This document shows, piece by piece, positions 13,989 to 26,735 of a stretch of 44,609 nt of DNA. Origin of the DNA: a virus (lineage: Duplodnaviria; Heunggongvirae; Uroviricota; Caudoviricetes); IMG/VR virus record IMGVR_UViG_3300045988_011059, positions 1 to 44,609 of that record. One strand, written 5' to 3'. Numbering within the stretch: the stretch's first letter is position 1; each line of letters starts with the position of its first letter. A model generated the notes under the pieces. That model made no database searches. It had not been told where the DNA came from and saw only the letters and a list, made by a program, of their open reading frames with translations. Made by a program: the position numbers and the translations under genes.

Positions 13989-14163
13989 ACTCACTTTTGA
14001 ATGGCATTTCATAGAAGTTAGTTAACTGGCCTCGATCACTTCGTTCTGTCATTTCTTTTGAGGCCTCCTCCTTGCTACCAACGGCGTAAATATCGACCCA
14101 CTCGTCCCATTCTTCGTCGAATACGCGGATTACATATATTGTTTTCATAATGTTTTCACGCAT
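13987..14163 (-). CDS. Hypothetical acidic small protein
   Basis: ORF track frame; start at ATG 14163 or 14148; last gene of the minus-strand cassette. Confidence 0.4.
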   Translation of the reverse strand: MRENIMKTIYVIRVFDEEWDEWVDIYAVGSKEEASKEMTERSDRGQLTNFYEMPFKSE

Positions 14164-14725
14164 TTGGGTAAATCCCCAGGATTCTATTAGCAATCGCAGC
14201 CGCTGTTAATGTAATCTCGCCCGGAACGACGGCGACGTCATGGTGCACTACCCCATCAATATCGTACAGATAACCACGGCTGTCATCCTCAAACGTATAG
14301 CCGTCACGATGAAGGCGAACGATTCTCACGTCATGACCCGCGGCGACGATAGGAGTCACTTCACTGGCGAATCCGCCATCAGACACTACAAAAACTTCGT
14401 TGCCGTCTGGCAAGTTTTCAGCAAGATACTTACCGAAATAATCATTGCCAAGTACAGGCTTAATGAATTGCTCCGAGATAGCAATCATGAACTGACGTCG
14501 CGACAACCCATTAAGGAAACATTCTGGCTTTTCTTTCCGTGCCCGGTCGTCGTAGCCGTCGAGAAACTCATGGTAAGCATCCGGACCTAACGCCGCCAAA
14601 GCAATATTGAACATTGGATTCTTGAAACTGGTAGTTCCTTTCGCAAAGCCCATTTCTACCAGTGCCATAGCAAGCGTGTCTTTCCCGCAACCCGCAGGAC
14701 CATTAAGAATAATTACCTTAGCCAT
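14156..14725 (-). CDS. P-loop nucleotide / polynucleotide kinase-like protein
   Basis: Walker A GPAGCGKDT near the N-terminus, like the G-x-GKDT P-loop of T4 dNMP kinase. Confidence 0.65.
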   Translation of the reverse strand: MAKVIILNGPAGCGKDTLAMALVEMGFAKGTTSFKNPMFNIALAALGPDAYHEFLDGYDDRARKEKPECFLNGLSRRQFMIAISEQFIKPVLGNDYFGKYLAENLPDGNEVFVVSDGGFASEVTPIVAAGHDVRIVRLHRDGYTFEDDSRGYLYDIDGVVHHDVAVVPGEITLTAAAIANRILGIYPNA

Positions 14726-15210
14726 TATTTATCGCTCCCATGTGGCTTTAAGTGTGAAGAGTTCCCGTTACAGTCATATTCGGTAACCGCGTGAGTGGTT
14801 ATGCCGAGTTCGCGGAAATGCTTTATTACCGCGGGAGAGTCGTCGAATGCGCACAAGATTCTTTCCAGCCCGATAGCACGTAGCACCTCTTCCTTAATTA
14901 CGATGTCTTTTCTGTTGTCGTGTTTGCTGCGCATGATTAACTGGTAAAATTCGACGCGGTGGCGCTGCAACCACATTCTTGTTTCTTTTTCCGCGTCATC
15001 ACTGCGGCCCGTTAAAATAACAACGGCGTAGCAGCGATTAAGGGCGTTACACAGTTCGATGTTATCTATAATTGGTTCATCATCTTTGCACGCCATGTTA
15101 AATGGTTTCCACGCCCAGGTTTCGCCGTAGTTATCTTTCGGCAGCAGGTGTAAACGATGAGTACCATCCGCCAATGTCCCGTCTAAATCGAAAATCACAA
15201 TATCTTTCAT
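14725..15210 (-). CDS. HAD-superfamily phosphatase, T4 Pnk phosphatase-domain-like
   Basis: N-terminal IVIFDLDGTLA (DxDGT), then LTGRS and RKD...KEE...DD motifs in the same order as the T4 polynucleotide kinase 3'-phosphatase domain. Confidence 0.7.
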   Translation of the reverse strand: MKDIVIFDLDGTLADGTHRLHLLPKDNYGETWAWKPFNMACKDDEPIIDNIELCNALNRCYAVVILTGRSDDAEKETRMWLQRHRVEFYQLIMRSKHDNRKDIVIKEEVLRAIGLERILCAFDDSPAVIKHFRELGITTHAVTEYDCNGNSSHLKPHGSDK

Positions 15211-16337
15211 CCCAGCATCTCCGGTGAAATAGTTAAACGTGCGACCTCGCCAAATTCGGCGCTATAAGTAATTACATTTGCGCTACGGCCCGACATCCAA
15301 CCTCCGCGGGAGGCGTAGGCGTCTTTAGCCGCTAAGGTGCGGTGTTGCTCAACAATCATGTTACGGCTTTCCACAATCTTCTGATGGTGCAGGTGTCCTA
15401 CATGGGCGTAGCTGTAAACACTCTCACCGAACGCTTTGCGGAACTTGGCGATCATAACCGGTTCGATAGCGTCGAAGCGTGCTTTATGTCCGTGGTGAAA
15501 GAACAGCGTCGTTTTGCCGTGTTGCACCATCTTGTAAACATCCGGTGACGTATCGACGAACACACGCGGCTCATTGTCATACAGCGTACTGAACATCTCA
15601 GCCAACCAAATCATGCCACTTTCGTCGTGATTCCCTTGCACGATAAGCAAGCGAACATTTTTATGCTTAACCAGCGCCATATCGACAACACGGCGGACCA
15701 TGCGAATCATGTAGCGGACAAGTTTCTGGTAACGGGTGTCGGCGTCAAGGGCGTGACCGCTTGCAGGTGTAACGGCAACCAGACTATCGAAGTGCGCGAA
15801 GTCGCCCAGCAGGTTAATAACCCCAGTCCCCGCATCCGGTGCTTTCTGAAACGCCGCGTCGAACCAGCGAGAGAACAGGTCTTCCGCAATCTTCATATCC
15901 CAGTCGTCGCCGCTCTCGTCGGCCCAGGCCAGCATACCGAGATGAAAATCGGATACAGTGTAAAGATTAAGCAGTTTATCGTCGCGTTTGGCTCGGGTTG
16001 CTTTAACAGGTGCAACCGGAGTAATCTCTGACTTCATGCCTTCGATTACGGCTTTCATCAACTCGACCTGACGTTCTGCGTCTGTGTCGGTCTTAACCCA
16101 TTGCAACTTAGTGTTGCCGAACTCGTCCACAAGTGACGACGTTCCTTTAATCTTGTAGCCATCTGGCACAAGGTGACTAACGTCGCGCCCGTGGCCTACG
16201 CCTTTCTTAGCCAGCTTCGCTTTACGGATGCGAATAACGCGGTCTGAGATGCCGTATTTACGGGCGATGTCGATATTCTTCATACCGGCGTTCAATTCTT
16301 CCTGCAACTGTTCGTCGGTTATTTTCTTCCTGGCCAT
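15207..16337 (-). CDS. Calcineurin-like metallophosphoesterase with N-terminal HTH
   Basis: Motifs D-x-H (SDFHLG), GD (LLGDFAH), GNHD (QGNHDE), GHxH (HHGH / GHLHH); N-terminal NIDIARKYGISDRVIRIRKA resembles an HTH. Confidence 0.7.
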   Translation of the reverse strand: MARKKITDEQLQEELNAGMKNIDIARKYGISDRVIRIRKAKLAKKGVGHGRDVSHLVPDGYKIKGTSSLVDEFGNTKLQWVKTDTDAERQVELMKAVIEGMKSEITPVAPVKATRAKRDDKLLNLYTVSDFHLGMLAWADESGDDWDMKIAEDLFSRWFDAAFQKAPDAGTGVINLLGDFAHFDSLVAVTPASGHALDADTRYQKLVRYMIRMVRRVVDMALVKHKNVRLLIVQGNHDESGMIWLAEMFSTLYDNEPRVFVDTSPDVYKMVQHGKTTLFFHHGHKARFDAIEPVMIAKFRKAFGESVYSYAHVGHLHHQKIVESRNMIVEQHRTLAAKDAYASRGGWMSGRSANVITYSAEFGEVARLTISPEMLG

Positions 16338-17309: not shown

Positions 17310-17671
17310 AAGCGCTGTATGAATTTGCGCAATGGTGCTTTGTCGACCGCCAGAAACGTAAGCAATTCGACGACATCGCGGCGGGGCACCAGGCGGCTTT
17401 GATTGCAATGGGCGTGATTAAAGAACCGCAGATGAAAGAAGCGACGGGGCCAGAATGCCCCGTTTCTCTTATCGACGTGTTCGAGAAATACCGTGCCATT
17501 AAATTCCTACAGCGCGAAACAGATGATACTATCGTTATAATCCCGCGCGATGCGCTCAAATGGCAAGATTTGGTAGCGTTTCGTGATGTCGCCGGTTACG
17601 GCATAAGTTTGTTCGAAGCCGAGGTTATCATGGGCTTAGACGGAATATTTGAGGGCAGAGAAGATGGCTGA
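17285..17671 (+). CDS. Putative -1 frame extension of the tail assembly chaperone (T-like)
   Basis: The -1 frame is open from 17285 and overlaps the last 25 nt of the chaperone; no ATG or RBS of its own; ends overlapping the tape measure start. Confidence 0.4.
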   Translation, partial: PRETLGKVKALYEFAQWCFVDRQKRKQFDDIAAGHQAALIAMGVIKEPQMKEATGPECPVSLIDVFEKYRAIKFLQRETDDTIVIIPRDALKWQDLVAFRDVAGYGISLFEAEVIMGLDGIFEGREDG

Positions 17672-19976
17672 TACGGCTTCCCTAATCGCCAGAGTAAAAA
17701 CTGAAGGGGCTGACGTCGCTGCCAAACAGCTTGACGCTATGGCGGCATCCGCAGACCGGGCGGACACATCTGTAAACAAACTAACGCCGGATGTTAATAA
17801 AGTTAACACCGCCACCTCTAAAGCAGCGTCCGACGGTTTCGCTAAGTTCCGTAACGCTGCTGGGCAGGTTGGTTTCCAGGTGCAGGACATGGTAGTCCAG
17901 TTGCAATCCGGTACGTCTGCATTCGTTGCGATAGGGCAGCAAGGTTCCCAACTTGCTGGCGCTTTCGGCCCTGGTGGTGCGGTGCTCGGGGCGGTAATCG
18001 CTCTAGCATCAGCAATTGGTGGTGTCCTGTACAAATCACTAACCGAAGCAGAAGGCAGTTCAAAAGACCTCGAAGCTGCGCAGAAGCAGTTAAAGGATAC
18101 TTTCCAGCAAACGGCATCTGGCTCCCTCGAACTGACAGACGGCCTTATCCAGCTTACCCAAATCAGCAGAGAAGCGGCGGAGACTCAGCTTGCTCTGGCT
18201 AAGGCTAACGCAGACCTTATCGCGCAGCAAACAGCTAAAGCTGTCCGCGAGGACGCCGAGTCATGGGAGACATGGAAAGCCTCCACGGCATCCGCTATTA
18301 GCCAGTACGATGCATTGGTCTCTAAGGGTGCGGATGTAGGCGACACGTTAGAAAAACTTGGCGGCACTTACGAGGGTAACATCGTAGGCGTCAACATGCT
18401 GGCGCAGAATATAGCGGAGCTTAGCAGTAAGTTCGGGGTTAACCGTGACCAGGCGCTGGAGATGATAGCGGCGCAGAGCGCGTTTAACAAAGAGCCAACC
18501 GCCGAGAATGCCCGCCGCATCGCCGATGTGTTTACCGACTGGCTCGGTAACACAAAACAGTTGAACCCGGAACTTATCCGCCTGACTGACAACGCCAACA
18601 AGAACGCCACGGCACTGGAGAACGCGGAGAAGTCAGCAAACGCGGCAGCAGAGGCCCAAAAGAATCTCGGTCGTAACGTTAACTCAACCACGCAGAGGTT
18701 CCAGGAACAGAACGAAGCTATCGTCAAGAATCAGCAAATTGCCATCTTAAGCGACCGCGAACGCATCCGGGCGCAAGCTGAACTGGACAAGCAGGCATTC
18801 GCTAAGCGTGAAGCTGTCACCAAAGAACAGATAGCCGCGTATAACGCAGCCCGTGACACGGAAGCACAGCAAGACATCGCTCGCATCGACGCGACCGAAA
18901 AAGCGAAGGCAGACCGCGAGGCTAAATCGAACGAGAAACGTCTGGCGGCGCAGGCCAAACGTGAAGAAACGGCGGCACAACGCCAGAAGAAAGCCGCGGA
19001 AGATTTCCTCGCTACGGTTGACCGTACAACCGGAGATGAAATTTCTCGCATCACGGCGGCCGAAGAGCAGAAACTGGCGAAACTTGAAGAGTTCAACCGC
19101 GCCGGAACGATAAGCCAGCAGCAGTATGAAAACGCCAAAACTCAGATTATGCTGGAGGCGGATACCGCACGGCAGCAAGAATTGGATAAGCGCGAGAAAG
19201 AACGGCAGGAGAAAAAGCAGAAAGGCGACGACTTCATGGCTCAGATTATTGGCCAGAACGCTACTGAGCTTGAGCTTCTCGACATCCAGGAGCAGCAGAA
19301 ACTGGCGGTCGCAGATAAGTACCGTGAGCAAGGGCTTATTAGTGAGAAGCAGTATCAGGCCGCGCTTAACGCCATCAACGAGCAATACGCCACCAAGCGT
19401 GCCGACGCAACGGCAACCGCCTTCGGTAACATGGCGTCAAACATCGGGTCTGCGTTGGGCGAGGCCTCTGGTGCGTATAAGGCATTCGCTATCGTACAGG
19501 CCACCATAGCCACGTACACCGCAGCTATCGAGGCGTACAAGTCCACGGCGGCTATCCCTGTAGTTGGCCCGTTCCTGGCCCCCGTAGCCGCTGCCGCTGC
19601 CGTTGGGGCGGGTATGGCGCAGGTTTCCGCTATCCGGTCCGCGCGTGAACAGGGCGGACAGTTATCCGCAGGGCAGGCTTCCACCATCGCAGAACGCGGT
19701 AAACCGGAAGTTATCATGCCGGCCGGCGCATCCCGTGTGCGCACCGCCCAGCAGATGAAAGAAATTATGGGGCAAAACGGGTCTTCTTCAGGCCCGTCTA
19801 ATGTTACTATCGTAAACAACACGAGTTCTCAAATCAGCAACGTATCCACCGAACAAGATGATGAAGGGCGTCTTCGTATCATCATCGAAGAGCAAGTGGC
19901 AGCCTCTTTGCAGAACAGCAACAGTAAGATTAGCAAGGCCCGCAAGGCCACAAGAAATGCGCCGGGGTTCAAGTAA
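17664..19976 (+). CDS. Tail tape measure protein
   Basis: About 770-aa Ala/Gln/Glu-rich coiled-coil protein with a hydrophobic segment, directly after the chaperone genes. Confidence 0.85.
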   Translation: MADTASLIARVKTEGADVAAKQLDAMAASADRADTSVNKLTPDVNKVNTATSKAASDGFAKFRNAAGQVGFQVQDMVVQLQSGTSAFVAIGQQGSQLAGAFGPGGAVLGAVIALASAIGGVLYKSLTEAEGSSKDLEAAQKQLKDTFQQTASGSLELTDGLIQLTQISREAAETQLALAKANADLIAQQTAKAVREDAESWETWKASTASAISQYDALVSKGADVGDTLEKLGGTYEGNIVGVNMLAQNIAELSSKFGVNRDQALEMIAAQSAFNKEPTAENARRIADVFTDWLGNTKQLNPELIRLTDNANKNATALENAEKSANAAAEAQKNLGRNVNSTTQRFQEQNEAIVKNQQIAILSDRERIRAQAELDKQAFAKREAVTKEQIAAYNAARDTEAQQDIARIDATEKAKADREAKSNEKRLAAQAKREETAAQRQKKAAEDFLATVDRTTGDEISRITAAEEQKLAKLEEFNRAGTISQQQYENAKTQIMLEADTARQQELDKREKERQEKKQKGDDFMAQIIGQNATELELLDIQEQQKLAVADKYREQGLISEKQYQAALNAINEQYATKRADATATAFGNMASNIGSALGEASGAYKAFAIVQATIATYTAAIEAYKSTAAIPVVGPFLAPVAAAAAVGAGMAQVSAIRSAREQGGQLSAGQASTIAERGKPEVIMPAGASRVRTAQQMKEIMGQNGSSSGPSNVTIVNNTSSQISNVSTEQDDEGRLRIIIEEQVAASLQNSNSKISKARKATRNAPGFK

Positions 19977-21376
19977 TGAGCGACTTATATTTCCCACGTA
20001 GCCTTAAGCCAGTGGTGTCAAAAGGCTACTCAATGACCAGACGCAACAACGTCTGGAGTGTTGATTTAGCCGGTGGCGGGGTGCGTCAGGGCCGTGACAC
20101 GTATTACGACGTGTTCCCTGTTAGCGTAACCCTGATTACATCCGCAATGGGGCGACAGGCGTTTCTGTCGTTCCTCGAAAAAGTAGACGGCGGTGCGTCA
20201 AGTTTCTGGATGGCGCACGACTTCGGCATGGGCATCGAAGATTATCAGGTAACAATCACATCCACCATCGCGGAGTCCACCGAAGACGGCATTAACTGGA
20301 CGATTACCTTCACGGCAACCGCCGAGAAATCGCCGTTCCAGGACCAAGAGAACCAGTGCCTGATTAACAATCTTCCAGATTTGTACGGTTGTTACGGGGA
20401 TTGTCTGGGTAGTTTCCTGAAAATATATGCGAACTATGAGACGACGTTCCCTCGCATCTGGAGCAATGAAGGGCCTGCAGGATACCCGCCGATTAACCTT
20501 CTGGCGTCGACTCTTGATAGCCGCATTGTGTATGACGGGCCGCAGGTTTATTACATCAACCGCAACGGCAATCTTGTGCAGTCCGCTGCCGATGAATGGC
20601 CTCTTACGTTTATCGATGGGGTTGCTGTCGGGCGCGTACCTCCTGACAATGGGGTGGTCAATTTTCTAACACAATCATCTAATCTTTCCGAAACATCGTG
20701 GAGCAGGACAAGAGTAAACGTGATTTGGGCCTCTGACGAACTGTCTACGGACTACACGTACAGCCTGATACCAACTGCGGTATCCGGAAGTCATTCTGTA
20801 CAACAGATAGTTACCGGTAGTTTTATGGATGGATCAAAGTATACATTCTCTTGGTGTTTCAAGTCTTACGGGTACAGGTTTATACGGTTGCGCGTATATG
20901 ATGATATAGGGGTACTAGGCGATTCTGTTGTAGACCTGTCTGACGGCGAGGTGTCTTCCGGGGCGAGCGGCACTACTGTGACTAACCTCGGTAGCGGATG
21001 GTTCCGCGTAACAGAAACAATAACATTCTCGTCAGCTAAAGGGTCGGCATACTTAGGCATAATGGCATGGGTGTATAACTCCGCAACAGGGTCATCATTC
21101 ATCGGAGATGGGGTTAGTGGGGTACTGTCTTGTGCCCCGCAAATGGAGCGTAGTAGTTTCGCGACATCACCTATAATCACAGGACCATCGCCCGTTACTC
21201 GGTATTCCGCAACTGCAAAAGTAGCAATGAACGGCGCAACAAGTATCGACATCACCTACTCCGACAGCTCTGTGGTAAACGTTCAGGCTGTTGATGGCTA
21301 CGCCGCCATACCACGGGCTAATTCAGCGTGGGGGAGTAAATATATCACCCGTATTGATTTTAATGTGGACGGTTAA
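19976..21376 (+). CDS. Minor / distal tail protein
   Basis: First gene after the tape measure (TAATG overlap); C-terminal two-thirds visibly more AT-rich. Confidence 0.6.
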   Translation: MSDLYFPRSLKPVVSKGYSMTRRNNVWSVDLAGGGVRQGRDTYYDVFPVSVTLITSAMGRQAFLSFLEKVDGGASSFWMAHDFGMGIEDYQVTITSTIAESTEDGINWTITFTATAEKSPFQDQENQCLINNLPDLYGCYGDCLGSFLKIYANYETTFPRIWSNEGPAGYPPINLLASTLDSRIVYDGPQVYYINRNGNLVQSAADEWPLTFIDGVAVGRVPPDNGVVNFLTQSSNLSETSWSRTRVNVIWASDELSTDYTYSLIPTAVSGSHSVQQIVTGSFMDGSKYTFSWCFKSYGYRFIRLRVYDDIGVLGDSVVDLSDGEVSSGASGTTVTNLGSGWFRVTETITFSSAKGSAYLGIMAWVYNSATGSSFIGDGVSGVLSCAPQMERSSFATSPIITGPSPVTRYSATAKVAMNGATSIDITYSDSSVVNVQAVDGYAAIPRANSAWGSKYITRIDFNVDG

Positions 21377-24815: not shown

Positions 24816-26735
24816 ATGTCAAGCGGATGCGGTGACGTTTTAAGCCTGGCGGATTTACAAACCGCTAAGAAACACCAGATTTTCGAAGCTGAGGTAATTA
24901 CCGGGAAACAAGGTGGTGTCGCTGGTGGCGCTGATATCGATTACGCGACCAATGCCGTTACAGGGCAGACCCAGAAGACACTGCCGGCGGTGTTGCGTGA
25001 CGCCGGGTTCAGGCCAGCTTCTTTTAATTTCACCACCGGCGGCACCTTAGGCGTGAACGACGCTGACCTGGCCGTTCTGTGGCCGGAGTCCGACGGCGGG
25101 GACGGTAACTATTACGCATGGAAAGGGTCACTGCCTAAAGTAATCCCGGCGGCATCCACACCTGATTCAACCGGAGGTATCGGTAGCGGGGCCTGGTCAG
25201 TGGTTGGCGATGTCACTTTGCGCAGCGACTTAAAATCTCCTGATGGGATGTACATGGTCGGAGGTGACCTAAAATCCTACGGTGCTGATGCTTCTGGGGT
25301 ATTGCCGTGCGACGCCTATATTTCGCAAATGCTAGCTGATAAAAAATTCATAGTTAACTCTGGTACTTACCTAATAACATCATCTCATGAGGTGGATATT
25401 TCATCCCTTGAATATGTCGAGGTTGGCCCGGACGTTGAATTTATCATTAGAAGCAACATCAACGGATTTATATTTAAGAATCCAAACGCCAATTTCGACG
25501 CAAACGGCATGCGGATAACAGTAGACATCCCCGGCGGTGGATACAGTAGGATAGCCTTAACTTTAAGAGGTAGCAAATACTACACCGGACCTTCTAACCT
25601 TGGGCGATTAACCCAGAAGAATAAATTCGGTCCGTTTTACGTGTTTAACCGACAAGGGGCTGTTAAACAAGAATCAGCGTCTGCTCCTGTTACCGATGAG
25701 GGGTACGGCTTCTCCATAGACTGCAACTCAGCAGATGAAGAAATACTGATATGGAACGAAGTTGATGTCTCATCCACTGGGTTTACTGTGGCTCATGCAA
25801 TAGGCGTAGGAACAAATCCACTTAACTTTATTTCATCTCTTGACCTTAAGTTGGTATCCTGGTTCAGTACATATCATTTCAGGGATACCAGCATCCCGCA
25901 ATCTGGTGGCAACGTAGCTGGAGGAATTGGTGATGTGCATGTGCGATTACAATCACAACCTCACGCTCAGATGGTTAAGGTTGTGCATATGGAACACGCG
26001 CCGGGGTTCATGAGCGGCTGCCGATTTGACCTATCAATCTGGGACCCTAACGCCTACGGCTATACCGCTAATGTGGTAGATGCATCCGTGACAAACGAAT
26101 ATACAAATACTATGGAGCGGAAATCGTACCCGTTAACTCGAGTGCTGAATATGGTAGATGGTAGTATATTCCCGGTAGTGAATTACACCAGTAGTATCCA
26201 GCAGTCGGATATACTTTCCAGTAGTGACCCTGAGCTGGCTAAGTACTTGTACCTGTCAACAGTAACTCCAGAAATGACGGTGATACAGGCGTGTAATGCC
26301 ATTAAAACATGGTGTAACGAAAATAACATCCGTAATAATTTTGAATTCAAAGTGTTTTTAGGTGACTCTACCGTCGATATACGTAACGTTTTTCTCCCGT
26401 GGATAACAGCTATAGGTGACTACTCCGGATACTTACATCTATATGCTACTTTTTACAATGGCATTATAAATACAGTGCGTGTCGAGTACGAGGTTAATCC
26501 TATAACCAGCGGGGGAAAGACAGAGAAACACGAAATATTATGGACAAACACAACAGGTCTTGTGTCGCATCGCCTGATTGAGTACTCATTCGGCACCACT
26601 GCTGAGATAAAAAGCAAGGTAGCCATACAGGCAAAAGGGTTCACAACTTTCGACTCTACTTTTAACCTCCCTGTTTGGTATAATGGAAATAATTCATGGC
26701 TTAAAGCAGACGGTTCTGTTGCGTACACCCTATAA
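24816..26735 (+). CDS. Tailspike / tail fibre protein
   Basis: 639-aa last gene of the tail operon; GC-richer N-terminal part, AT-rich C-terminal part; followed by a strong terminator. Confidence 0.7.
   Translation: MSSGCGDVLSLADLQTAKKHQIFEAEVITGKQGGVAGGADIDYATNAVTGQTQKTLPAVLRDAGFRPASFNFTTGGTLGVNDADLAVLWPESDGGDGNYYAWKGSLPKVIPAASTPDSTGGIGSGAWSVVGDVTLRSDLKSPDGMYMVGGDLKSYGADASGVLPCDAYISQMLADKKFIVNSGTYLITSSHEVDISSLEYVEVGPDVEFIIRSNINGFIFKNPNANFDANGMRITVDIPGGGYSRIALTLRGSKYYTGPSNLGRLTQKNKFGPFYVFNRQGAVKQESASAPVTDEGYGFSIDCNSADEEILIWNEVDVSSTGFTVAHAIGVGTNPLNFISSLDLKLVSWFSTYHFRDTSIPQSGGNVAGGIGDVHVRLQSQPHAQMVKVVHMEHAPGFMSGCRFDLSIWDPNAYGYTANVVDASVTNEYTNTMERKSYPLTRVLNMVDGSIFPVVNYTSSIQQSDILSSSDPELAKYLYLSTVTPEMTVIQACNAIKTWCNENNIRNNFEFKVFLGDSTVDIRNVFLPWITAIGDYSGYLHLYATFYNGIINTVRVEYEVNPITSGGKTEKHEILWTNTTGLVSHRLIEYSFGTTAEIKSKVAIQAKGFTTFDSTFNLPVWYNGNNSWLKADGSVAYTL

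What the first reader, a model, noticed from the sequence alone, without database searches (positions are those of the whole stretch)
20350..21376. Distal tail protein carries an AT-rich C-terminal extension, a possible second acquired binding module
The 466-aa protein right after the tape measure is much longer than a minimal distal tail protein, and its C-terminal two-thirds look compositionally different (AT-rich, Ser/Thr/Gly-rich) from the N-terminal core. This suggests an appended carbohydrate-binding or receptor-binding domain, parallel to the tailspike mosaicism.
Basis: inference. Interest (0 to 1): 0.35.

Follow-up and report, generated by a model that had tools for sequence, protein, structure and literature searches.

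The report
Swappable sugar-binding-like module on tail-tip protein
The protein after the tape measure in this E. coli Kagunavirus phage is a small tail-tip ring protein fused to a roughly 300-residue module related to gene-transfer-agent head fibres, whose central lectin-like domain is swapped between phages like a receptor-binding cassette; a structurally studied relative (Shigella phage Sf11 gp17) has the same appendage, with its function still untested.

Summary
"AT-rich" is weak: GC is 0.491 against 0.510 for the window. The true boundaries lie further downstream than nt 20350.

Closely related phages (K1H, K1G, Salmonella Jerseyvirus SE2) carry a 147-166-aa version ending ...TFPRIWDPMQ*. 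The long form diverges right after W162, so aa 163-466 is an in-frame appended module.

The module has conserved flanks (aa 163-225 and 401-466) around a 175-aa hypervariable cassette (aa 226-400). There are at least 27 cassette types.

The cassette passes NCBIfam's "GTA_spike_fiber" cutoff. It is homologous to the RcGTA head fibre, which binds capsule, and to lateral tail-fibre tips. Its predicted fold resembles carbohydrate-binding modules (CBMs).

Cassettes reassort independently of tailspikes and cross genera; synonymous divergence is about 0.1 in the cassette against 0.8-2 in its flanks.

The closest known protein is Sf11 gp17 (PDB 9OCC), whose C-terminal appendage is published as "unknown function".

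Most likely role: six flexible, non-essential accessory glycan adhesins on the tail tip. Binding is inferred, not shown.

Verdict: a new member of a known kind, of moderate interest.

The parts
19976..20350 (+). N-terminal core (aa 1-125) of the protein at the lambda-gpM / distal-tail-protein position
   Evidence: It starts on the stop codon of the tape measure gene and precedes the gpL-, gpK- and gpJ-like genes. Identity across homologues is 0.85. The same core makes up most of the 166-aa short form. There is only a weak match to lambda gpM (hhalign E 0.011) and no sequence match to solved distal tail proteins.
20351..20461 (+). Conserved helical segment (aa 126-162; helix predicted at aa 133-152), ending in TFPRIW; putative tailspike-docking adaptor
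   Evidence: This is among the most conserved parts of the protein (0.93), and AF2 predicts a helix at aa 133-152. It is present in the short form too. In Sf11 gp17 the equivalent helix binds the three N-terminal helices of the tailspike (PMC12724387). The first 60 aa of the tailspike are 80-100% identical across all Kagunavirus loci.
20462..20650 (+). Start of the appended module: Gly/Pro linker (SNEGPAGYPP) and conserved N-flank (aa 163-225)
   Evidence: The long form departs from the short form right after W162. Identity among homologues is 0.92, and 76-97% with Cedarrivervirus/Skatevirus-like phages whose N-domains are only 16-19% identical. The segment is beta-stranded with pLDDT above 90 in the module model.
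20651..21175 (+). Hypervariable cassette (aa 226-400): GTA-head-spike-fibre-type, CBM-like beta-sandwich
   Evidence: - Identity across homologues is 0.38, with at least 27 types at 70% identity.
- NCBIfam NF048003 matches aa 229-409 at 84.5 bits against a cutoff of 36.
- The PDB entry 6TB9 (Rcc01080) matches at E 3e-9 with the single sequence and 1e-35 with a profile.
- Foldseek hits include CBM27, CBM22, CBM61, CBM4 and CBM6, plus E217 gp45 and Pa193 gp46.
- GC3 is 0.46.
- dS is far below that of the flanks within cassette types.
21176..21373 (+). Conserved C-flank (aa 401-466) that closes the module
   Evidence: Identity is 0.83. It co-occurs with the N-flank in stand-alone 290-330-aa homologues and around other inserts. 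The megablast match to relatives resumes in about the last 170 nt. It is beta-stranded with high pLDDT, and the pTM of 0.89 implies a fixed packing with the rest of the module.
24816..26735 (+). Tailspike (639 aa), the partner expected to dock on the adaptor helix; context only, not part of the finding
   Evidence: Pfam Tail_spike_N and tailspike PHROGs match it. Residues 53-143 are 42% identical to Sf11 gp13. The C-terminal part is at most 20% identical to every other locus compared.

Best explanation
The gene encodes a two-part tail-tip protein.

- **Core (aa 1-162).** This is the conserved protein at the distal-tail-protein position, including a helix that most likely docks the tailspike trimers, as in Sf11 gp17.
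- **Appended module (aa 163-466).** It was fused in frame to the end of an ancestral 166-aa protein. It is equivalent to a whole stand-alone fibre protein of the RcGTA head-spike-fibre type. A Gly/Pro linker leads into a conserved split scaffold (aa 172-225 plus 401-466), which holds a 175-aa CBM-like beta-sandwich cassette (aa 226-400).
- **Proposed role.** If the protein forms a hexameric ring as in Sf11, six monomeric copies would be displayed around the tail tip, between the tailspikes. They most likely act as low-affinity, multivalent, dispensable adhesins for a cell-surface glycan, complementing the enzymatic tailspike.
- **How specificity changes.** The whole cassette is replaced by homologous recombination in the conserved flanks, independently of the tailspike and even between genera.

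Shown here: the architecture, the fusion point, the family membership of the cassette, the predicted fold, and the recombination pattern. Inferred: hexameric display, glycan binding, and any effect on adsorption or host range.
For: **Fusion point**
- K1H and Jerseyvirus SE2 proteins end ...TFPRIWDPMQ* and are followed directly by the gpL-like gene.
- The window's protein continues TFPRIW|SNEGPAGYPP... for 304 more residues.
- The short-form junction is contiguous in 179 phage records, including most Jerseyviruses.

**Module as a unit**
- Stand-alone 290-330-aa proteins align to aa 170-462.
- The same module sits at the extreme C-terminus of a 942-aa lateral tail fibre of phage JohannJBalmer, and inside a protein that looks gpL-like by eye (P0136; not tested with any tool).
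- AF2 on the module alone gives pLDDT 94 and pTM 0.89.

**Binding-type domain**
- NCBIfam GTA_spike_fiber scores 84.5 bits against a cutoff of 36.
- RcGTA head fibres mediate attachment to the capsule polysaccharide (PMC7296036).
- Foldseek hits are dominated by CBMs and by the accessory domains of tailspikes.
- P0135 residues 837-1031 align to the cassette (iE 3e-13), and the same region passes the Pfam CBM_4_9 gathering score.

**Specificity-cassette behaviour**
- Identity is 0.38 in the cassette against 0.83-0.93 in the flanks, with at least 27 types.
- Among 19 phages, 10 pairs share a cassette but not a tailspike, and 7 pairs share a tailspike but not a cassette.
- L030, a Cedarrivervirus-like phage, shares a 92%-identical cassette with K1ind1, although their N-domains are 16% and their gpJ proteins 25% identical.
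- Within a cassette type, dS is 0.007-0.16 in the cassette against 0.3-2 in the flanks.
- Five O16-dependent BASEL phages with two unrelated tailspike types share one cassette type.

**Physical placement**
- The Sf11 cryo-EM study shows six gp17 copies, with the C-terminal appendage extending away from the tail and too flexible to model (PMC12724387).
Against: - No binding assay exists for this protein or for Sf11 gp17, and the Sf11 authors call the function unknown.
- The query itself gives no Pfam CBM hit, even at E up to 10.
- The closest solved relatives, E217 gp45 and Pa193 gp46, are baseplate wedge subunits with no reported glycan binding.
- The BASEL study treats the tailspike as the only receptor-binding protein of Kagunavirus, and those phages depend fully on O-antigen.
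- Between cassette types, variability is as high in strands as in loops (0.31 against 0.30). This means whole-domain replacement rather than a tuned binding-loop pattern.
- Within-type dN/dS is mostly below 1 (0.25-0.44).
- The shared cassette of the O16 phages may reflect common ancestry and a common isolation site.
- Natural short forms show that the module is not needed for infection.
Confidence: 0.6

Rival explanations
1. The module is purely structural. It would act as a spacer, brace or symmetry adaptor that positions or shields the six tailspikes, with no ligand of its own, and its variability would be neutral drift plus hitch-hiking.
For: - The Sf11 authors assign the gp17 C-terminal extension a role in bridging the C6/C3 symmetry mismatch and docking tailspikes.
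- The closest solved homologues, E217 gp45 and Pa193 gp46, are architectural baseplate wedge proteins.
- Variability is not concentrated in loops.
Against: - The docking helix lies in aa 126-162 and is already present in the short form, whose phages assemble tailspikes with near-identical N-termini. The module is therefore not needed for docking.
- Cassettes do not co-vary with tailspike bodies: there are 17 discordant pairs.
- Neutral drift does not explain cassettes with dS of about 0.01-0.1 sitting in flanks with dS of 0.4-2, which points to recent spread by recombination.
- It also does not explain the family's recurrent position at fibre tips.
Confidence: 0.2
2. The module binds glycans that are not the infection receptor, such as mucus, biofilm matrix or debris. 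It would enrich phages where hosts live, as proposed for Ig-like capsid decorations.
For: - The fold is CBM-like.
- The module is dispensable.
- Relatives occur as tandem arrays in very large virion proteins (2-8 copies), which is typical of decoration or adhesion domains.
Against: - It sits at the tail tip next to the tailspikes rather than on the head or tube.
- The extreme allelic diversity and horizontal sweeps of cassettes fit a polymorphic, host-strain-specific ligand better than a generic environmental glycan.
- One cassette type is shared by all five O16-dependent K-12 phages examined.
Confidence: 0.1
3. Under it, the region 20350-21376 is a recently acquired AT-rich foreign segment specific to this phage.
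For: - GC3 drops from 0.63 to about 0.46-0.47 in aa 226-466, similar to the mosaic tailspike.
- The window's own cassette type is rare: only P0001-P0004 share it, and one phage record falls in the 60-80% identity band with the other 138 below 60%.
Against: - Overall GC of the region is at the 27th percentile, so it is not an outlier.
- aa 126-225 is among the most conserved parts of the protein.
- The module as a whole is old and shared by about 66 phage records and several genera.
- Only the inner 525 nt is recently exchangeable.
Confidence: 0.07
4. The module is an enzyme, such as a depolymerase, esterase or glycosidase, acting on surface polysaccharide.
For: Some Foldseek hits are glycoside hydrolases (EndoMA1, EngBF, CITase) and tailspikes.
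Against: - Those alignments span only about 165-225 columns of much longer multi-domain proteins, and several small stand-alone CBMs (124-197 residues) are matched over nearly their whole length. Which domain of each enzyme is matched was not examined.
- There is no catalytic-family hit in Pfam, NCBIfam or PHROGs.
- The tailspike already supplies the enzymatic activity.
Confidence: 0.03

Closest known systems
Shigella phage Sf11 (Cedarrivervirus) gp17, distal tail protein with tailspike adaptor helix and large C-terminal appendage (PDB 9OCC; Subramanian, Dover & Parent, J Virol 2025, PMC12724387)
   Same: - It occupies the same gene position (tape measure, then this protein, then hub proteins, then tailspike) and has nearly the same length (457 against 466 aa).
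- The C-terminal module is clearly homologous (E 7e-94 over aa 158-464). The flanks are 76-84% identical and the cassette has the same fold and length.
- A helix precedes the module in both proteins.
   Different: - The N-terminal core and helix show no detectable sequence similarity (16-19% identity; hhalign E 0.21).
- The docking N-termini of the tailspikes also differ.
- The cassette type is different (32% identity).
- In Sf11 the appendage was left unmodelled and called "unknown function". Its family assignment, cassette structure and exchange were not described there.
RcGTA head spike fibre GhsB/Rcc01080 (PDB 6TB9; NCBIfam NF048003 GTA_spike_fiber)
   Same: - The cassette passes the curated family cutoff and aligns to Rcc01080 residues 84-292.
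- Both are monomeric, flexible appendages on a virion. The RcGTA fibre mediates binding to capsular polysaccharide.
- Stand-alone homologues of about 300-330 aa match the whole module.
   Different: - The RcGTA fibre is a separate protein anchored by a 10-residue N-terminal peptide to a head-vertex pentamer. Here the module is covalently fused to a tail-tip ring protein.
- The structure of the RcGTA fibre domain itself was not resolved experimentally.
"Evolved Dit" proteins of siphophages infecting Gram-positive bacteria (Lactobacillus J-1/PL-1, lactococcal 936 group, streptococcal phages)
   Same: - In both cases a distal tail protein is functionalised with CBM-fold modules displayed at the ring periphery.
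- In those phages the modules bind the same host as the main receptor-binding protein, with lower affinity (PMC7291167).
- The BppA-type CBM there resembles CBM4 (PDB 1GUI), which is also among the Foldseek hits here.
   Different: - There the CBMs are inserted into loops of a galectin-like C-terminal domain.
- Here no galectin domain is detected. The module is appended after a helix, is of the GTA-spike-fibre family, and the host is Gram-negative.
Pbunavirus baseplate wedge/triplex subunit (E217 gp45, PDB 8ENV chain K; Pa193 gp46, PDB 9B45)
   Same: These are the best solved structural matches for the whole module (Foldseek E 8e-10 to 9e-11, TM 0.51-0.56 over 326 columns). They are also detectable by profile (E 1e-11). 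They are peripheral tail-end proteins that carry the fibre attachment site.
   Different: They are myovirus baseplate proteins of about 500 aa with additional wedge domains. Identity is 17-18%, and no variable-cassette behaviour or glycan binding has been reported for them.
C-terminal tips of lateral tail fibres of Stephanstirmvirinae (for example JohannJBalmer Bas62 gp35; phAPEC8-like phages)
   Same: The homologous cassette plus C-flank lies at the extreme C-terminus of the fibre, matching aa 730-940 of 942 at 26-29% identity. That is the position normally occupied by receptor-binding domains.
   Different: It is part of a long multi-domain fibre (annotated as having intimin and glycosidase domains) rather than of a ring protein. 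The N-flank is not evident there.

Membership tests
NCBIfam NF048003 GTA_spike_fiber (phage head spike fiber domain) | HMM score above the curated cutoff (36 bits) over most of the 182-position model | tested here: met
   aa 229-409 match model positions 8-180 of 182 at 84.5 bits, E 1.3e-23. Independent phmmer and profile matches to Rcc01080 give E 3e-9 and 1e-35.
NCBIfam NF048003 GTA_spike_fiber (phage head spike fiber domain) | Function of the archetype: binding of capsular or surface polysaccharide | not testable with these tools
   This is known for RcGTA head fibres only (Westbye 2016, as cited in PMC7296036). No assay exists for this protein.
Sf11 gp17-type long distal tail protein | Encoded immediately after the tape measure gene and before the hub genes, with a tailspike gene after the gpJ-like gene | tested here: met
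   The gene order is TMP 17649-19976, this ORF, DUF1833/gpL-like, gpK-like, gpJ-like, then tailspike. Sf11 has the same order.
Sf11 gp17-type long distal tail protein | Homologous C-terminal appendage of about 300 aa | tested here: met
   E 6.7e-94 over aa 158-464 against 9OCC_C residues 153-457.
Sf11 gp17-type long distal tail protein | Homologous N-terminal ring domain and adaptor helix that binds the tailspike N-terminal helices | tested here: inconclusive
   There is no sequence similarity of the N-domains (16-19% identity; hhalign E 0.21). A helix is predicted at aa 133-152 in the equivalent position, but with low pLDDT. The first 52 aa of the tailspike are also unrelated to Sf11 gp13. 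Analogy is plausible; homology is not shown.
Distal tail protein (Dit / lambda gpM / T5 pb9) superfamily | N-terminal tail-tube-like beta-sandwich ring domain that forms a hexamer under the last tube ring | tested here: inconclusive
   - Synteny fits.
- hhalign against lambda gpM gives E 0.011 over 43 columns at 3.8% probability.
- A profile of six N-domains finds no solved distal tail protein, and there is no Pfam or NCBIfam hit.
- The AF2 N-domain has low confidence.
- The annotators of phage fEg-Eco06 noted similarity to lambda gpM, 8K35_F.
Evolved Dit (CBM-decorated Dit of Gram-positive-infecting siphophages) | CBM(s) inserted into loops of the peripheral galectin-like C-terminal domain | tested here: not met
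   No galectin-like domain was detected. The short form ends after the helix, and the module is appended to the C-terminus rather than inserted. The resemblance is functional only.
Pfam CBM_4_9 (PF02018) / galactose-binding-like CBM superfamily | Pfam HMM hit above the gathering score | tested here: not met
   The query gives no Pfam hit even at E up to 10. The link is only transitive: P0135 residues 837-1031 align to the cassette (iE 3e-13) and pass CBM_4_9 at 31.2 bits against 25.9.
Pfam CBM_4_9 (PF02018) / galactose-binding-like CBM superfamily | Beta-sandwich jelly-roll fold similar to solved CBMs | tested here: met
   In the high-confidence model (pLDDT 94), Foldseek matches CBM27, CBM22, CBM61, CBM6, an alginate-binding and a porphyran-binding CBM, and a hyaluronan-binding module at E 1e-5 to 7e-4; CBM4 (1GUI) was matched only with the earlier full-length model (rank 46). 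Target-normalised TM-scores are up to 0.68.

The most novel reading that the evidence does not exclude
Kagunavirus and Cedarrivervirus/Skatevirus-like siphophages would carry two independently swappable host-recognition modules. One is the enzymatic tailspike. The other is a cassette of the GTA head-fibre family on the distal tail protein, a true second receptor-binding determinant that moves between phage genera by recombination in conserved flanks. If so, host range in these therapeutically used phages is set combinatorially. The presence or absence of the module (long against short form, for example K1-independent K1ind1-3 against K1-capsule-dependent K1G/K1H) would mark different adsorption strategies.
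Probability: 0.3. Interest if true: 0.55.

Novelty: new member of a known kind. Interest (0 to 1): 0.36.

Why it matters
Kagunaviruses are common E. coli phages. They are used as therapy candidates and as synthetic-biology chassis, and their host range is currently attributed to the tailspike alone (BASEL study). If the module on the distal tail protein binds a surface glycan, it is an overlooked second specificity determinant.

It also has ready-made recombination "handles" in its conserved flanks, which would make it easy to engineer.

The analysis gives a concrete, testable hypothesis for the appendage that the Sf11 cryo-EM study left as "unknown function". It also links the appendage to a very large family of phage and GTA fibre domains (2883 cluster representatives).

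If the module turns out to be inert, the finding is simply an ordinary decorated tail protein.

Tried and rejected
The difference is within normal variation for the window, so composition was rejected as primary evidence.
- **Pfam on the whole protein and on both halves, up to E=10.** No hits.
- **First AF2 run on the full protein with 54 close homologues.** Only the cassette was confident (mean pLDDT 58). The N-domain and flanks were unusable, so the N-domain fold could not be searched.
- **Homology of the N-domain to Sf11 gp17, to lambda gpM and to any solved chain.** Results were negative or inconclusive: hhalign E 0.21, a profile search with only chance hits, and hhalign E 0.011 at 3.8% probability against gpM. 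BLASTP of the gpL-like neighbour against lambda gpL also found nothing.
- **Strict co-variation of cassette with tailspike.** The Mantel test gives r=0.37, p=0.0004. This is driven by near-clonal groups, and 17 discordant pairs exist, so obligatory co-adaptation was rejected.
- **Loop-focused hypervariability, as in DGR or antibody-like systems.** Rejected: strands and loops are equally divergent between types.
- **Positive selection within cassette types.** dN/dS is 0.25-0.44, and 2.8 in one pair with very few substitutions. That is elevated relative to the core (0.01-0.05) but is not evidence of dN/dS above 1.
- **Literature.** Searches for a prior description of this domain in Kagunavirus found only tailspike and tape-measure mosaicism (PMC5967307) and the tailspike-only view of BASEL.
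- **Antisense ORF 20866-21255 (129 aa) inside the cassette.** There is no support for it being a gene.
Full report
**1. What the window is**

The region belongs to an E. coli siphophage of genus Kagunavirus (Guernseyvirinae). Megablast of the gene finds 99 phage records, nearly all Escherichia or Kagunavirus, at 88-95% identity over its first about 660 nt.

The ORF 19976-21376 (+) encodes 466 aa. Its ATG overlaps the stop of a 775-aa tape measure protein (PHROG 1538, E 1.6e-200). It is followed by a DUF1833/"minor tail" gene, a 121-aa gpK-like gene, an 851-aa gpJ-like gene and a 639-aa tailspike. The gene therefore sits where lambda has gpM and where Sf11 has its distal tail protein.

**2. The observation**

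- GC is 0.535 against 0.491, with a window mean of 0.510. The region lies at the 27th percentile of equal-sized windows.
- Ser+Thr+Gly is 28.8% against 30.2% (p=0.82).

A real shift exists further downstream:
- GC3 is 0.63 (aa 1-162), 0.54 (163-225), 0.46 (226-400) and 0.47 (401-466).
- The cassette is at the 6th percentile of 175-codon windows of other genes and resembles the tailspike gene.
- S/T/G reaches 35.3% in aa 226-466, which is in the top 2.2% of windows.

**3. Anatomy from comparison**

*Conservation profile.* An alignment of 54 full-length homologues (446-472 aa) gives mean pairwise identities of 0.85 (aa 1-125), 0.93 (126-165), 0.92 (166-225), 0.38 (226-397) and 0.83 (398-466). 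This is a sharply delimited hypervariable cassette inside conserved flanks.

*A natural short form.* A scan of viral contigs returned 29 loci. Ten of them encode only a 166-aa protein that is 88-93% identical to aa 1-162 and is followed directly by the gpL-like gene.
- The K1H protein ends ...TFPRIWDPMQ*. The window's protein continues TFPRIW|SNEGPAGYPPINLL....
- The annotated Salmonella Jerseyvirus SE2 protein is shorter (147 aa, annotated from a later Met) but has the same DPMQ end.
- The short-form junction is contiguous in 179 phage records.
- The conserved N-flank of the long form is found in about 66 records at 80% identity or more.

The simplest reading is that a 166-aa protein is ancestral in Guernseyvirinae, and that aa 163-466 (nt 20462-21373) was added in frame in part of Kagunavirus.

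**4. What the module is**

*Closest solved protein.* phmmer against PDB sequences finds Sf11 gp17 (9OCC chain C, E 6.7e-94, aa 158-464) and the RcGTA head spike fibre Rcc01080 (6TB9, E 2.9e-9, aa 226-432). The Sf11 paper reports the following:
- Six gp17 copies form the distal tail protein ring.
- Residues 3-165 were modelled.
- A single helix binds the three N-terminal helices of each tailspike trimer.
- [quoted passage not shown] was too flexible to build.

*Family assignment.* NCBIfam places aa 229-409 in NF048003 "GTA_spike_fiber" (84.5 bits against a cutoff of 36). RcGTA head fibres are monomeric and flexible, and they mediate attachment to the capsular polysaccharide.

*Breadth of the family.* An exhaustive HMMER search with aa 163-466 finds 2883 cluster representatives (E up to 1e-3). 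They include:
- stand-alone proteins of 290-330 aa that match the whole module;
- large proteins with 2-8 tandem copies of the cassette;
- a 552-aa protein (P0136) that by eye resembles lambda gpL, with the module inserted in it (not tested with any tool).

In phage JohannJBalmer the cassette plus C-flank forms the last 210 residues of a 942-aa lateral tail fibre.

*Link to CBMs by sequence.* One distant relative (P0135, residues 837-1031) aligns to the cassette at iE 3e-13, and the same region passes Pfam CBM_4_9.

*Predicted fold.* AF2 on the module alone with a diversified alignment gives pLDDT 94 and pTM 0.89. The model is all-beta, with the two flanks and the cassette in a fixed arrangement. 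Foldseek against the PDB gives:
- E217 gp45 and Pa193 gp46, the baseplate wedge "triplex" subunit that anchors the fibre (E about 1e-10, 326 columns). These are also found by profile at E 1e-11.
- A long list of CBMs (27, 22, 61, 6, alginate-, porphyran- and hyaluronan-binding; CBM4 only with the first, full-length model), MAM domains, Cry and Vip3 toxins, and tailspikes K2-2 and CBA120 TSP4 (which of their domains is matched was not examined).

BFVD hits are tail fibre proteins and proteins annotated as Concanavalin A-like lectin/glucanases superfamily.

**5. How the cassette evolves**

*Diversity.* Among about 145 long forms there are at least 27 cassette types at 70% identity. All are 168-181 aa, except one locus with a 74-aa replacement.

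*Independence from the tailspike.* I compared cassette, flanks, N-domain, gpJ and the tailspike receptor-binding part across 19 phages.
- Eight pairs share both cassette and tailspike, 10 share the cassette only, and 7 share the tailspike only.
- fEg-Eco06 and Golestan have 99%-identical tailspike bodies but 31%-identical cassettes.
- L003 has the fEg-Eco06 cassette (100%) with an unrelated tailspike (7%).
- L017 and Sf11 share an 82%-identical tailspike body but 32%-identical cassettes.

*Exchange across genera.*
- L030, a Cedarrivervirus-like phage (N-domain 16%, gpJ 25% identical), has a cassette 92% identical to that of K1ind1.
- The flanks are 76-84% identical between Sf11 and Kagunavirus, although their N-domains are 17-19% identical.

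*Synonymous divergence confirms recent exchange.*

| Group | dS in cassette | dS elsewhere in the gene |
|---|---|---|
| K1ind1 / L017 / L030 | 0.09 | 0.8-1.5 (flanks), 1.5 (N-domain) |
| Golestan pair (L010/L029) | 0.007 | 0.4-0.7 |

*Selection and pattern of variation.*
- dN/dS within cassette types is 0.25-0.44, against 0.01-0.05 for the core. That is relaxed or diversifying selection, but not demonstrably above 1.
- Divergence between types is equal in strands and loops. Variation therefore arises by whole-domain replacement.

*A possible host signal.* Five BASEL phages that all depend on O16 O-antigen share one cassette type (88-97%) although they carry two unrelated tailspike types. This is compatible with host tracking, but it is confounded by common ancestry and a common isolation site.

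**6. Mechanism proposed**

- *Shown:* an in-frame C-terminal fusion after W162; a linker, split scaffold and cassette architecture; membership of the cassette in the GTA head-fibre domain family; a CBM-like predicted fold; cassette exchange independent of the tailspike; and the existence of related phages that lack the module.
- *Inferred from Sf11:* aa 1-162 forms the ring and the docking helix. This is supported by its high conservation and by 80-100% identity of the first 60 tailspike residues in both short-form and long-form phages. Six module copies would project flexibly from the tail tip.
- *Inferred from family and fold:* the cassette binds a polymorphic cell-surface glycan weakly and multivalently. 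That would aid initial adsorption or orientation alongside the enzymatic tailspike, much as the "evolved Dit" CBMs of Gram-positive-infecting phages bind the same host with lower affinity.

**7. Comparison with what is known, and novelty**

The protein is a homologue of the published Sf11 gp17 in its module and its synteny. Its N-domain shows no detectable sequence relationship to Sf11 gp17 and only a marginal one to lambda gpM, so "distal tail protein" remains a positional assignment.

It is not an "evolved Dit" in the strict sense, because there is no galectin domain and the module is appended rather than inserted. It probably works like one.

The domain family is curated (NF048003) and the long protein has been described, so this is a new member of a known kind. 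The following appear new relative to the literature I could search:
- identifying the "unknown" appendage as a GTA-head-fibre/CBM-like module;
- the precise fusion point, defined by natural short forms;
- the flank-cassette-flank recombination architecture, with cross-genus exchange.

These points are computational and leave the function untested, so interest is moderate.

Noticed in passing
[not shown]
   Followed up: partly
P0136 (552 aa): By eye this protein resembles lambda gpL (an EPG...LFE.D N-terminus and a C-terminal cysteine cluster; no tool comparison was run) and carries the same module inserted internally. If so, the module has been grafted onto at least three different virion proteins: the distal tail protein, a gpL-like protein and fibre tips.
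   Followed up: no
L016:7501-8592: This is a 363-aa variant in which the 175-aa cassette is replaced by an unrelated stretch of about 74 aa, while both flanks stay intact. It could be a deletion or replacement allele, or a different mini-cassette.
   Followed up: partly
L018-L027 (short form) compared with the long-form loci; window 24816-26735: In 10 short-form and 20 long-form loci, no tailspike receptor-binding type is shared between the two groups (maximum 23% identity). The K1-capsule endosialidase phages K1G and K1H are short, and K1ind1-3 are long. This may be an association between having the module and the adsorption strategy, or a sampling effect.
   Followed up: partly
L032-L036 (BASEL Bas71, 72, 74, 75, 76): All five O16-dependent Kagunaviruses share one cassette type (88-97% identity) but carry two unrelated tailspike types of 643 and 726 aa.
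   Followed up: partly
window 24816-26735: In the tailspike, the first 60 aa are 91-98% identical to the short-form Kagunavirus loci. Over aa 1-140 identity drops to 63-67%. The C-terminal body is at most 20% identical to every other locus compared. Its GC of 0.465 and GC3 of 0.467 are the lowest among the large structural genes.
   Followed up: partly
window 14156-16337 (- strand): Three reverse-strand genes interrupt the tail morphogenesis genes, between the major tail gene region and the chaperone and tape measure genes. In phage fEg-Eco06 the corresponding genes are annotated dNMP kinase, polynucleotide kinase and DNA repair exonuclease.
   Followed up: no
window 20866-21255 (- strand): A 129-aa antisense ORF lies entirely inside the hypervariable cassette. 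Nothing suggests that it is a gene.
   Followed up: no
window 20400-20461, compared with L023:7925-8001: Residues 143-157, just before the fusion point, exist in two variants: CLGSFLKIYANYETT and GLGCFLKAYGTAQST. The first is found in the window and L013 (both long form). The second is found in K1H (short form) and in L014 and L015 (long form), so the variant does not track the presence of the module.
   Followed up: no
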